Origin: Caldimonas sp.
GTDB taxonomy: Bacteria > Pseudomonadota > Gammaproteobacteria > Burkholderiales > Burkholderiaceae_C
Assembly: GCA_035995885.1 (NCBI GenBank)
Contig: DASYKC010000161.1
Location: 2,434 to 66,433 of the forward strand
Reading direction: 5' to 3'
Length of the DNA: 64,000 bases
Below, one piece after another: positions 41,239 through 49,834 of the stretch. A program made the translations under genes and the position numbers. The notes under the pieces are model-generated. The model made no database searches. It saw only the letters and a program-made list of their open reading frames with translations, and had not been told where the DNA came from. The first letter of the stretch is position 1. Every line of letters starts with the position of its first letter.

Positions 41239-41898
41239 TCAGCGCTTGATATCCAGCTCGCCGTAGAGCCGCTCGACCAGGGCACGCAGGCGTTCGAGCT
41301 CGGTCTCCGCCATCGCCACCCTCGCCTTCAGCGTCGCCAGCTCGCTCACCGGCACGATCGTCTCGTCGTCGCTCGCCGCCGTGAACACGCTCAGGTCGAC
41401 TGGGCCGCCGAGGAGATGGGCCCAGCGCTGCTCGCGGGCGCCCGGGGCGCGCGGCAGCTTGAGCGCGAGCGGACCGCCCTTCTCTTGCGCGCGCGCCGCC
41501 AGCTCGTCGAGGAAGCCCTCGACCGCCGAGACGTCGGCGAAGCGATGCAGACGGTCGCTCGCCGCGCGCAGCTCCGACGCGGTCTGCGGGCCGCGCAGCA
41601 TCAGCGTCGCCAGCAAGGCGACCGACTGCGACGGCAAGCCCAGCACGCGGCCCAGGTTGTGCTCGTAGCGGGCGACGCGCGAGCCGCTCGACTCGAACGC
41701 GAGCGACAGCGACTTCAGGGCGTCGACCGCGCCCTGCACCTCGGCCTCGCTCGCCGCAAGCACCGGGTCGCGCGCCGTCTTCTGGTTGCAGCCGAGCGTG
41801 AGCGTGTTCAGCGACAGCGGATAGCTGTCGGGCACGGTCAGCGACTTCTCGACGAGCACGCCGAGCGCGCGCAATTCGAGCAACGACAGCGGCCGCAT
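41239..41898 (-). CDS. YceH/DUF480-family protein (alternative GTG at 41901)
   Basis: RALGVLVEK...PDSYPLSLN...CNQKTARDPV; LMLRGPQT; REQRWAHL. Confidence 0.85.
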   Translation of the reverse strand: MRPLSLLELRALGVLVEKSLTVPDSYPLSLNTLTLGCNQKTARDPVLAASEAEVQGAVDALKSLSLAFESSGSRVARYEHNLGRVLGLPSQSVALLATLMLRGPQTASELRAASDRLHRFADVSAVEGFLDELAARAQEKGGPLALKLPRAPGAREQRWAHLLGGPVDLSVFTAASDDETIVPVSELATLKARVAMAETELERLRALVERLYGELDIKR

Positions 41899-41996
41899 CA
41901 CGGCAAAGGGTCGCTCGCCCGGACGCCGCGCCGCGCCGAAACCGGCCGCGTCACCTCGCCGGGCAACGAACGCAGTGAGGCGCGGTCGAGCGCCAC
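41898..41996 (-). other. Intergenic 32-aa mini-ORF / repeat-like element (copy B)
   Basis: GTG overlaps the SDR TAG, and its TGA overlaps the yceH start; encodes VALDRASLRSLPGEVTRPVSARRGVRASDPLP. Confidence 0.5.
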
Positions 41997-46925: not shown

Positions 46926-48008
<1,083 letters not shown>

Positions 48009-48018
48009 GGCGTCGCGC

Positions 48019-48870
48019 TCAGCTCTTCACGGCGCCGGCCGTGAGGCCCGACACCATGTAGCGCTTGAAGACGTAGTAGATCGCCGCCGGCGGCAGCGCA
48101 TAGATCAGGCCGGTTGTCATCAGCAGCTCCCAGGGCGAGTCGTCGGCCGAGAGGAAGCTGCCGAGGGCGACGCCGAGCGTCGTGCTCTTGTCGTCGGAGA
48201 GGAGCAGGAAGGCGTAGAGGTACTCGTTCCAGGCGAGCAGCAGCGCATAGGTGCCGACTGCGACCAGCGACGGCAGCATCAGCGGCAGGTAGACGAGGCG
48301 AAACAGCTGCAGCGGCGTCGCGCCGTCGATTCGCGCCGCCTCGTCGAGCTCGAGCGGCAGCTTGTCGGACGCCTGCTTCAGGACCCAGATCGAGTACGGC
48401 GTCGCGATCGTCACCATCGCCAGGATGAGCGCCCACTGGCTGTTGAGAAGCCCGTAGTTGCCCATCGTCTTGTACATGGGCACGGCGAGGAACGCGGCCG
48501 GGATGAAGTAGGTGAAGAGCGCCAGGTTCATGATCGTCCTGCCGCCCCTGACGCGGAGGCGACTGATCGCGAACGCCGCCGACGTGGCGATGAAGAGCGT
48601 GATCGCGCCCACGGCAACGGCGATCAGCACCGAGTTCCACATCTGCAGCCAGAAGTGGCTGAGGTAGTGGTGCTGCTGGTGGAAGACCATCGAGAAGTTA
48701 TGCAGCGTCGGGTGCTCGGGCCAGAGCTTGCCCGAGACCGCCTGCTCCTTCGGTGAGATCGCGAACAGCACGAGGTGGTAGATCGGCAGCAGCGTCCAGA
48801 TCGCGACCGGGATGCCGATCAGGAGCAGCTTCGCCTCGGCCGACGCCTTCTTCAGCGTCATGGCGCTCAT
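48019..48870 (-). CDS. Carbohydrate ABC transporter permease (MalG-like)
   Basis: [14 protein letters not shown] motif, [17 protein letters not shown]. Confidence 0.93.
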
Positions 48871-48947
48871 GGCCGGGCGCCCGGCCGCCCCAGGCCCGGC
48901 GCCGGCCCCTCGCAAGGAAGCGACCGAAGAGAGCGTGGCGGCGTCAT
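48867..48947 (-). other. Intergenic 26-aa mini-ORF / repeat-like element (copy A)
   Basis: Bounded by ATGA at both ends; encodes [26 protein letters not shown]. Confidence 0.55.
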
Positions 48948-49834
48948 CGCGACAGGCGCTTCATCATGAAATAGACGAGCGGCAGCACGAGCGGCATGGC
49001 GCAGACGACCGTCGCCATCGACATGTCGACCTGGTCGAGACGGAGGTAGCGCAGGCCGAGCGTCGCGAGCACGTGCGTCTGGTCGGCCGGGCCGCCGCCC
49101 GTGAGCAGGTAGACGCTGTTGAAGTCGCCGAGCGTCCAGATCATCGACAGGATCGTCGACGTGAGGTAGAGCGTCTGCAGCGACGGCCAGGTGATGAACT
49201 TGAACTTCTGCCAGGTCGTCGCGCCGTCGACCGACGCCGCTTCGTACATCTCGGCGGGGATCGCCATCCGCCCGGCGACGAGGATCAGGGTCCAGAACGG
49301 CAGCGACTTCCAGATGTGGACGACGATCGCCAGGCCGAGCGCGATCGTCGGGTTGTTGAGCCAGTTCGGTCCGTCGGCGCCGGTGAGCCGGAAGATCGTC
49401 GAATTGATGACGCCCCACTCCGGGTTGAGCATGAAGCGCAGCGACAGGATCGTCGGGATCGACGGCACCGCCCACGGCAGGATGAAGAGCAGCGACAGCC
49501 ACTTGATCCAGGGCCGCGTGCGGACGAAAAACCCCGAGAGGAAGAGCGCGACCAGCATCTTGACGTTGATGCCGACGATCAGGAAGAAGAGCGTGTTGAC
49601 GACCGTGCGCGCGAACACCGGGTCGTCGACGAGCTTGACGTAGCTCGCGGGATGGCGCGCCAGCCAGAGGCCGTAGACGACCGGGTAGAGAACGAAGACC
49701 GCGAAGATCAGGACGTAAGGCGCGACCAGGACGATGCCCCACGCCTGCCACGGCGTCAGCCGGCGCCGGGTCGGACCGACCGGTGCCGACTGGCGCTCGG
49801 GCTGCCCGGCGCCTTCGAGCGCGAGCGTCGACAC
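48944..49834 (-). CDS. Carbohydrate ABC transporter permease (MalF-like)
   Basis: LPWAVPS, WKSLPF, MYEAASVDGAT EAA motif. Confidence 0.93.
   Translation of the reverse strand: MSTLALEGAGQPERQSAPVGPTRRRLTPWQAWGIVLVAPYVLIFAVFVLYPVVYGLWLARHPASYVKLVDDPVFARTVVNTLFFLIVGINVKMLVALFLSGFFVRTRPWIKWLSLLFILPWAVPSIPTILSLRFMLNPEWGVINSTIFRLTGADGPNWLNNPTIALGLAIVVHIWKSLPFWTLILVAGRMAIPAEMYEAASVDGATTWQKFKFITWPSLQTLYLTSTILSMIWTLGDFNSVYLLTGGGPADQTHVLATLGLRYLRLDQVDMSMATVVCAMPLVLPLVYFMMKRLSR

What the first reader, a model, noticed from the sequence alone, without database searches (positions are those of the whole stretch)
48867..48947. 26-aa mini-ORF bounded by ATGA at both ends bridges two ABC permeases
Seen: on the minus strand the upstream permease stops in ATGA (48947-48944). 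That ATG opens [26 protein letters not shown], whose stop lies in a second ATGA (48870-48867) that also starts the next permease. The 77-nt offset is exactly the phase needed to keep stop/start coupling on both sides. Inference: an element inserted at an ancestral ATGA junction (ATGA as target duplication) and was kept because it relays translational coupling, or it acts as a regulatory peptide. I recall similar RSLRSLPPEG..LGRPG strings at N-termini of predicted Burkholderiales proteins, but that is unverified memory, not a search result.
Basis: partly seen in the sequence, partly recalled or inferred. Interest (0 to 1): 0.7.

Follow-up and report, generated by a model that had tools for sequence, protein, structure and literature searches.

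The report
Repeat element bridging two coupled genes
The 26-codon mini-ORF is one copy of a known but unexplained betaproteobacterial repeat (BRE) that landed in the overlapping stop/start (ATGA) of two ABC permease genes, and, like mycobacterial MIRUs, it is built so that ribosomes can read across it into the next gene.

Summary
On the minus strand the upstream permease stops in ATGA (48947-48944). That ATG opens a 26-codon ORF whose TGA lies in a second ATGA (48870-48867), which starts the next permease.

The 77 nt in between are an insertion. 21 of 22 same-genus orthologous junctions, and most of 80 more distant ones, have a plain stop/start overlap or a short spacer.

The insert belongs to a dispersed family with 37 copies in this genome. 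The family occurs in 24 of 143 sampled genera of the order. It matches the "Beta-proteobacterial repeat element" (BRE) of Hot et al. 2011, for which no function was proposed.

The family has a strongly covarying 3' hairpin. 57 of 72 copies carry a 5' ATG next to the upstream stop. In 38 of those 57 the ORF ends at the next gene's start, against 6 and 11 of 57 in shifted frames.

At this same permease junction, BRE inserts of eight different lengths are all 3n+2.

The same DNA is read in two different frames in two subfamilies. Selection therefore acts on having an ORF, not on a particular peptide.

This behaviour matches mycobacterial MIRUs. Translation itself is inferred, not shown, and how the element moves is unknown.

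The parts
48944..49834 (-). Upstream ABC permease gene (BPD_transp_1); its stop TGA is at 48946-48944, inside the first ATGA
48871..48947 (-). 77-nt BRE copy: the inserted DNA, counted with one of the two ATGA copies
   Evidence: Filled versus unfilled orthologous junctions; family membership by nhmmer and covariance model; collinear match to published BRE
48867..48947 (-). Mini-ORF of 26 codons plus stop ([26 protein letters not shown]); its start overlaps the upstream stop and its stop overlaps the downstream start
48904..48921 (-). Degenerate copy of family hairpin 2 (consensus GCTGCCCCCCGAGGGGGC; here GCTTCCTTGCGAGGGGCC)
   Evidence: alignments
48871..48903 (-). Hairpin 3: variable covarying arms around the conserved core CTGGGGCGGCCGGGCG (48893-48878). 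In the minimum-energy fold of this copy the base of the stem also pairs the downstream AUG and codons 2-3
48019..48870 (-). Downstream ABC permease gene (BPD_transp_1); start ATG at 48870-48868, inside the second ATGA
41898..41996 (-). Second, more decayed BRE copy in the window. Its ORF starts at a GTG overlapping the upstream TAG (TAGTG) and ends in a TGA overlapping the next ATG (TGATG)

Best explanation
The stretch is a copy of the Beta-proteobacterial repeat element (BRE), a dispersed and sometimes tandem repeat of about 75-90 nt found in Burkholderiales. This copy inserted at the start codon of the second permease gene, inside the native 4-nt stop/start overlap ATGA, so ATGA now stands on both sides.

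The insert is 77 nt (3n+2) and has no in-frame stop. The left ATG therefore opens a 26-codon ORF that ends in the TGA of the right ATGA.

Inferred mechanism:
- Ribosomes finishing the upstream permease re-initiate on the mini-ORF.
- They translate through and melt the stable 3' hairpin, which pairs the region around the downstream AUG.
- They terminate on the downstream start codon and re-initiate there.

Translational coupling of the two permeases would thus survive a 77-nt insertion.

Shown here: the insertion, family membership, the hairpin covariation and the family-wide conservation of the start/phase/stop arrangement.

Inferred: that the mini-ORF is translated and that the downstream gene depends on it.

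The element is most simply a selfish repeat that persists because it is translationally harmless, as proposed for mycobacterial MIRUs. How it is copied is unknown.
For: Family:
- 37 copies in the window's own genome.
- Present in 24/24 same-genus genomes searched.
- Present in 32/301 genomes, 24/143 genera and at least 12 families of the order.
- Published Bordetella BRE sequences (PMC3110155, List S1) align collinearly on the reverse strand, sharing CCCCCACGC, GCTGCCCCCCGAGGGGGC and CCTTGGGCGGCCCG.

Insertion:
- 21/22 same-genus and 64/80 distant orthologous junctions are unfilled.
- Filled/unfilled pairs at six other sites show the downstream start codon duplicated.

Structure:
- On 70 copies 95.2% of cells pair, against 38-57% when partners are slid.
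- Covariation score is 0.524 against at most 0.097 when slid; 0/500 shuffles reach it.
- 9 of 11 pairs of hairpin 3 show double changes.

Coupling architecture:
- 57/72 copies have a 5' ATG; 55/72 lie within -14..+4 nt of a sense-strand upstream stop.
- The ORF from the ATG ends at a stop overlapping, or at most 8 nt before, the start of a long high-GC3 ORF in 38/57 copies. Shifted frames give 6/57 and 11/57; Fisher p = 1.8e-11.
- This holds even where the ORF runs 8-32 nt beyond the element, and in tandem arrays in other families.

This junction:
- BRE inserts of eight distinct lengths (53, 77, 80, 86, 89, 113, 140, 158 nt) in Variovorax and other genera are all 3n+2 (p = 1.5e-4). For the ten copies read directly, the mini-ORF runs from the upstream ATGA to the downstream ATGA or GTGA.

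Precedent: MIRUs insert at start codons with a coupled ORF at -4 spacing (PMC12548453; PMC3184786).
Against: - There are no transcript or ribosome data.
- The fold of this copy is no more stable than shuffles of the same GC-rich sequence (z = 0.40). The structure rests on covariation across the family.
- About a third of ATG-bearing copies are not coupled downstream. 15/72 copies lack the ATG, and some copies are antisense or lie inside ORFs.
- Bordetella BREs have A/T-run arms and mostly no ATG, so coupling is not a property of every BRE.
- Some inserts at this junction are orthologous (four Variovorax species), so the events are fewer than the loci.
- The G-rich 3' arms could act as independent Shine-Dalgarno sites.
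Confidence: 0.75

Rival explanations
1. The copy is a passive, neutral insertion. The element is a selfish repeat, and the mini-ORF is a by-product of GC-rich DNA that is open in all sense frames. The downstream permease is translated independently from a Shine-Dalgarno-like G-rich 3' arm.
For: All three sense frames of the consensus are open (read from the alignment). The 3' arms are often GGAGG- or GGGCG-like at -7 to -12 from the start. Some copies are uncoupled or lack the ATG.
Against: Neutrality does not predict frame-0 coupling of 38/57 against 6 and 11/57. It does not predict eight of eight insert lengths being 3n+2 at one junction. It does not predict that an internally deleted remnant (L112, 53 nt) and multi-unit arrays stay in frame. 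The SD-like arm lies inside a covarying stem.
Confidence: 0.13
2. The element mainly serves the host as an RNA structure. The hairpins would act as an intra-operon stabiliser, processing site or attenuator that sets the ratio of the two permeases, and the ORF is secondary.
For: There is strong covariation and a conserved hairpin core. Copies are mostly in the sense orientation inside operons. The BRE-containing region in B. pertussis yields small transcripts (PMC3110155).
Against: Most orthologous operons work without it. Presence or absence is patchy even within one genus. Copy number ranges from 3 to 77 among same-genus genomes. This looks like a mobile repeat rather than a conserved regulator. 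The two roles are not mutually exclusive.
Confidence: 0.09
3. The mini-ORF encodes a functional or regulatory peptide, for example a proline-rich stalling leader.
For: The string PPRSLRSLPPEG recurs in many copies and contains PP motifs.
Against: Subfamily B reads the same nucleotides in another frame (MN.PHAHFVRCPPRGRS.PFGRPGG), and the two frames merge again only after an indel. Indel variants change the peptide freely while keeping the start and stop positions. The conservation is therefore at the nucleotide level.
Confidence: 0.03

Closest known systems
BRE, Beta-proteobacterial repeat element (Hot et al. 2011, BMC Genomics 12:207; PMC3110155)
   Same: It has the same conserved sequence blocks in the same order and the same size range (75-91 bp). 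It is high in GC, lies mostly in intergenic regions, sometimes overlaps ORF ends or sits inside ORFs, and forms tandem arrays with few or no bases between units. It is present in Comamonadaceae and other Betaproteobacteria.
   Different: The paper proposed no function. As far as I read it, it described no mini-ORF, no coupling, no covarying hairpin and no insertion at start codons. The Bordetella copies have A/T-run arms and mostly lack the 5' ATG. They were listed in the orientation opposite to the mini-ORF, the orientation of the bprJ1 small RNA.
MIRU, mycobacterial interspersed repetitive units (Supply et al. 1997, as summarised in PMC12548453 and PMC3184786)
   Same: These are 40-100-bp repeats inside operons. 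They insert at start codons with short direct repeats. They carry an ORF whose ends overlap the neighbouring genes (-4 spacing), form tandem arrays of variable number, and have unfilled sites in relatives.
   Different: MIRUs are in an unrelated phylum, and no sequence relationship was tested or is expected. BRE has a long hairpin with hypervariable but complementary arms around a conserved core, placed directly before the downstream start.
REP/BIME elements mobilised by RAYT (Y1) transposases
   Same: Both are GC-rich, hairpin-forming, intergenic, often just after stop codons and inside operons.
   Different: BRE has no GTAG-type head, is twice as long and has two hairpins. The Y1 transposase family PF01797 is absent from this genome and from other BRE-rich genomes.
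MITEs and ERIC-like small mobile sequences that carry ORFs (Delihas 2007, PMC2759123)
   Same: They are small non-autonomous repeats. Their open frames become fused to or abut host genes, and filled and empty sites are found.
   Different: No terminal inverted repeats are evident in BRE. The flanking direct repeats vary in length (3-15 nt) rather than being a fixed target duplication.

Membership tests
BRE (Beta-proteobacterial repeat element) | Shared conserved sequence blocks in collinear order with the published BRE copies | tested here: met
   A profile built from this genome's copies aligns to four published Bordetella BREs over profile positions 3-66 on the reverse strand. Shared blocks are CCCCCACGC, GCTGCCCCCCGAGGGGGC and CCTTGGGCGGCCCG. 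The E-values are weak (0.004-0.1 for a 5-Mb database) because of indels and A/T arms. L218 has intermediate A/T arms.
BRE (Beta-proteobacterial repeat element) | Unit of about 75-91 bp, GC-rich, dispersed in multiple copies, mostly intergenic, often tandem | tested here: met
   The unit here is 77 nt. There are 37 copies in this genome. Tandem arrays are seen in L205, L209, L212 and L213.
BRE (Beta-proteobacterial repeat element) | Restricted to Betaproteobacteria/Burkholderiales | tested here: inconclusive
   It was found in 24/143 genera of the order and in named Variovorax records. Other orders and classes were not scanned.
MIRU-type coupling repeats | ORF within the repeat whose start overlaps or abuts the upstream stop and whose stop overlaps the downstream start | tested here: met
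   This copy has ATGA at both ends. Ten of ten copies at this junction in other genomes show the arrangement.
MIRU-type coupling repeats | Insertion at start codons with short direct repeats; unfilled sites in relatives | tested here: met
   The duplicated piece is ATG, ATGA, GTGA, ATGGA or ATGCGC at seven sites.
MIRU-type coupling repeats | Sequence homology to mycobacterial MIRUs | not tested
   No MIRU sequence was compared, and none is expected to match. The claim is 'works like', not 'is a member of'.
REP/RAYT | Short imperfect palindrome with a conserved tetranucleotide head, plus a cognate Y1 (RAYT) transposase in the genome | tested here: not met
   PF01797 gives 0 hits in G000, G001, G011, G020, G023, G082, G312, G287 and G208, all BRE-rich. 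It is present in 10/15 BRE-free genomes. The consensus has no GTAG head.
MITE | Terminal inverted repeats and a target-site duplication of fixed length | tested here: not met
   The 5' end GCCCCCACGCTC has no complement at the 3' end (alignment). Flanking repeats range from 3 to about 15 nt.
Any Rfam family | Match to a curated covariance model | tested here: not met
   No relevant hit at E <= 1 on 11 loci that carry copies.

The most novel reading that the evidence does not exclude
BRE may be a distinct class of start-codon-seeking element whose hairpin takes part in choosing the target. The 3' arm of hairpin 3 often resembles the sequence just upstream of the insertion point: 11/11 nt at C218, GGAGGAT plus GTGA at C188, 9 nt at C102. 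The 5' arm is its complement. The arms change far faster than the rest of the element while staying complementary. This would fit integration guided by base-pairing or short homology between the element's hairpin and the Shine-Dalgarno/stop/start region of operon junctions, without a Y1 transposase. It would be a mechanism not described for bacterial repeats, coupled to a built-in relay ORF.
Probability: 0.15. Interest if true: 0.75.

Novelty: new member of a known kind. Interest (0 to 1): 0.5.

Why it matters
It gives a plausible role, or at least a persistence strategy, to a repeat family (BRE) that has had none since 2011. It also shows that the MIRU trick has arisen independently in Betaproteobacteria: insert at a start codon and carry an ORF that hands ribosomes on to the next gene.

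Practical consequences:
- Gene callers will produce false N-terminal extensions (the RSLRSLPPEG strings) and spurious small proteins wherever BRE sits.
- Filled and unfilled versions of the same junction in cultured Variovorax offer a natural test bed for termination-reinitiation across about 80-160 nt and a stable hairpin.
- The 3n+2 rule is a simple, checkable signature of translation-level selection on a non-coding repeat.

Tried and rejected
- **Rfam** scan of 11 copy-bearing loci found nothing relevant.
- **Thermodynamic test** of this copy: z = 0.40, uninformative in 70% GC DNA.
- **RAYT/IS200 (PF01797) as mobiliser:** absent from BRE-rich genomes and uncorrelated with BRE presence.
- **Arms copied from the target at each insertion:** C188 and C218 suggested this. 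It was weakened because several arm types recur at unrelated loci and genomes. GTCAGCGCCC/GGGCGCTGA and GTCAGTCCC/GGGACTGAC also occur in L110 and L200. At C188 the 5' arm matches the altered right copy, not the native sequence. Even so, a copy's own left flank resembles its 3' arm more than permuted pairs do (p < 0.0002). Homology-guided insertion stays open.
- **Fixed-length target duplication** (for example an IS5-like TNA): rejected, because repeat lengths vary.
- **Genus-specific element:** the first scan found 0/16 other families. Wider sampling and named Variovorax records overturned this.
- **Regulatory peptide:** rejected on frame grounds.
- **Not run:** a protein search for the peptide in public databases, because the DNA-level evidence made it unnecessary.

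Full report
**1. Observation**

The minus strand of window 48700-49100 reads ...CTGTCGCG-ATGA-CGCCGCCACGCTCTCTTCGGTCGCTTCCTTGCGAGGGGCCGGCGCCGGGCCTGGGGCGGCCGGGCGCCCGGCC-ATGA-GCGCCATGACGCTGAAGAAG.
- The first ATGA (48947-48944) holds the stop of ORF 48944-49834.
- The second ATGA (48870-48867) holds the start of ORF 48019-48870.
- Both ORFs are BPD_transp_1 permeases. A solute-binding protein gene lies upstream and a MalK-like ATPase gene downstream, so this is a sugar-type ABC operon.
- The ATG of the first ATGA opens [26 protein letters not shown], and its TGA is that of the second ATGA.
- The offset is 77 nt, which is 3n+2.

**2. The stretch is one copy of a dispersed repeat**

- A search of the window's own genome (4.57 Mb, 245 contigs, 70% GC) with the 81 nt found about a dozen related stretches.
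- Sensitive blastn and an iterated nhmmer profile gave 37 copies.
- One of them is a second copy in this window, at 41921-41979 (ORF 41898-41996). Another first-stage note had flagged it independently.
- The consensus is (ATGAn)GCCCCCACGCTCnCTTCGTTCGCTGCCCCCCGAGGGGGCGC-[arm]-CTTGGGGCGGCCCGGCG-[arm'].
- Rfam has no matching family.

**3. Structure**

RNAalifold on 32 copies predicted two features:
- a small hairpin, GCCCCC-CGA-GGGGGC;
- a long hairpin whose outer 7 bp differ widely between copies but stay complementary.

On 70 copies from many genomes:
- 95.2% of cells form standard pairs, against 38-57% when the 3' partners are slid by 1-3 columns;
- the covariation score is 0.524, against at most 0.097 when slid;
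- no shuffle out of 500 reaches the observed values;
- 9 of 11 pairs of the long hairpin show double changes, in up to 36 of 70 sequences;
- inside the "loop", a G-C to C-G switch distinguishes two subfamilies (TTGGGGCGGCCCGGCG versus TTCGGGCGGCCGGGCG).

This alignment was fitted to the model, which favours the structure. The slid controls argue that the signal is real. For the copy in question the folding energy is no better than shuffles (z = 0.40). In its minimum-energy fold, the base of the long hairpin pairs the downstream AUG and the next two codons.

**4. It is an insertion**

I searched same-genus genomes with the 701 nt around the junction and extracted the junctions.
- 21 of 22 same-genus orthologues are unfilled. 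Fourteen show the plain 4-nt overlap at the standard spacing, for example CTGTCGCGATGAAGGCATCGACGCTGAAGAAG; the rest differ by a few codons or have a short spacer.
- Only G020 carries the element, at the same spot.
- Among 80 more distant orthologues fetched from named records (Variovorax, Ramlibacter, Casimicrobiaceae MAGs and others), 64 are unfilled.
- Removing 77 nt from the window sequence restores CGCGATGAGCGCC..., which aligns codon for codon with the unfilled orthologues.

Six other copies of this genome were compared with relatives. Each showed unfilled sites, and in each the duplicated piece was the downstream start codon plus 0-3 nt:
- ATG at the ftsQ/ftsA junction, at greA, and at C41;
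- GTGA at the acetolactate synthase large/small subunit junction;
- ATGGA at C86;
- ATGCGC at C204.

**5. Distribution and identity**

- The covariance model found the element in all 24 same-genus genomes searched, at 3-77 copies each.
- It found the element in 32 of 301 genomes sampled across the order, covering 24 of 143 genera and at least 12 families. Per-genome counts there were capped at 14 scored candidates.
- It also hit named Variovorax records at this very junction.

The literature search led, through a review of small repeats (PMC3184786), to Hot et al. 2011 (PMC3110155). They described a "Beta-proteobacterial repeat element" (BRE) with these properties:
- 75-91 bp, about 69% GC, mostly intergenic, sometimes tandem;
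- present in Bordetella, Polaromonas, Delftia, Acidovorax and Rhodoferax;
- no function proposed.

Their listed sequences are the reverse complement of my consensus and align collinearly to my profile. The element is therefore a BRE. Only those two papers in the held library mention BRE.

**6. The mini-ORF is a family property**

Among 72 non-redundant copies from this genome and same-genus loci:
- 55 lie within -14..+4 nt of the stop of a sense-strand high-GC3 gene;
- 57 carry an ATG at the 5' boundary, usually -1 to +5 nt from that stop;
- the ORF from that ATG ends at a stop overlapping, or at most 8 nt before, the ATG or GTG of a long high-GC3 ORF in 38 of 57;
- frames shifted by one and two bases give 6 and 11 of 57 (Fisher p = 1.8e-11).

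The pattern holds in at least 15 copies where the ORF runs 8-32 nt past the element before stopping in an ATGA, TGATG or TGAnATG. It also holds in other families of the order and in tandem arrays. There, either each unit ends in CTGAcATG, or a two-unit ORF stays open and ends at the next gene's start.

At the permease junction itself, BRE inserts are seen in Variovorax species and several MAGs.
- They have eight distinct lengths: 53, 77, 80, 86, 89, 113, 140 and 158 nt.
- All eight are 3n+2 (p = 1.5e-4).
- In each of the ten copies read directly, the ORF runs from the upstream ATGA to the downstream ATGA or GTGA.
- The 53-nt copy in Variovorax gracilis is an internally deleted remnant that still keeps the phase.

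**7. The peptide is not what is conserved**

Subfamily A reads ATG-AAG-CCC-CCA-CGC-TC... as MKPPRSLRSLPPEGA. Subfamily B starts one or two bases differently and reads the same nucleotides as MN.PHAHFVRCPPRGRS. The two converge again only near the end. Nucleotide sequence, hairpins, start, phase and stop are conserved. The amino-acid sequence is not.

Some copies read in frame into the next gene (C85, L035, L053).

**8. Mechanism**

Those insert at start codons so that an ORF within the repeat is coupled to the gene at -4 spacing, minimising harm (PMC12548453). They have tetranucleotide direct repeats, and their ORF ends overlap the neighbouring genes (PMC3184786).

Here a ribosome terminating on the upstream permease would restart on the mini-ORF. 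It would open the hairpin that occludes the next start, terminate on that start and restart there.

Comparative data show that selection acts on start, phase and stop, which implies translation.

**9. Mobility**

- There are no terminal inverted repeats, and the flanking repeats vary in length (3-15 nt).
- A copy's own left flank resembles its 3' arm more than permuted pairs do (p < 0.0002). Striking cases are C218 (11/11 nt), L049 (10 nt) and C102 (9 nt).
- Several arm types recur at unrelated loci, so the arms are at least partly inherited.
- Y1/RAYT transposases are absent from this and other BRE-rich genomes.
- The same junctions are hit repeatedly in distant lineages: this permease junction, and the acetolactate synthase junction in G000 and G176.

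Homology- or pairing-guided insertion at SD/stop/start regions is a possibility that I could not test.

**10. Verdict**

- The element is a known repeat (BRE) behaving like a known kind (MIRU).
- The new part is the link between the two, together with the covarying hairpin and the 3n+2 rule.
- It is of moderate interest.

Noticed in passing
window 41898-41996 (-): A second, decayed BRE copy lies between an SDR-like gene and the next gene. Its ORF starts at a GTG overlapping TAG (TAGTG) and ends in a TGA overlapping ATG (TGATG), spanning 32 codons.
   Followed up: partly
G000:C102:21684-21753 (own genome, outside the window): A BRE copy lies inside a reading frame of more than 1000 codons that stays open across it. 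It is flanked by CCGGCGATC(T)CG(C)GAG direct repeats. This may be an in-frame intragenic insertion of the kind Hot et al. reported for some BREs.
   Followed up: no
L209, L212, L213, L205, L160 (other genomes of the order): Tandem arrays of 2-3 BRE units with periods of about 78-85 nt. In most, each unit's stop abuts the next unit's ATG. L212 is an antisense array next to a CAT, the start of a gene on the other strand.
   Followed up: partly
G000:C188:51946-52017 and L202 (G176): The GTGA/ATGA junction between the acetolactate synthase large and small subunit genes carries BRE copies of different subfamilies in two distant lineages, yet is unfilled in the three closest relatives read. The same junction types seem to be hit repeatedly.
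   Followed up: partly
L112 (Variovorax gracilis), permease junction: A 53-nt internally deleted BRE remnant has lost most of hairpin 3. It still forms an 18-codon ORF from ATGA to ATGA.
   Followed up: partly
G000:C188, C218, C86, C1 and relatives: The 3' arm of hairpin 3 often looks like the native Shine-Dalgarno/stop region just upstream of the insertion point, and the 5' arm is its complement. The arms diverge much faster than the rest of the element. This is unexplained.
   Followed up: partly
G000:C211:6525-6573: A half copy (5' part and hairpin 2 only) abuts the CAT of a LivM-like permease gene on the other strand. It continues into a different hairpin (CCTGC-GCGGA...TCCGC-GCAGG), which may be a variant or chimeric element.
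   Followed up: no
L091, L075:2682, L067:2349 (same operon in other genomes): In some relatives the next junction of the same operon (permease 2 to ATPase) carries a BRE with CAGGCCT arms. That junction is unfilled in this window (48008-48019).
   Followed up: no
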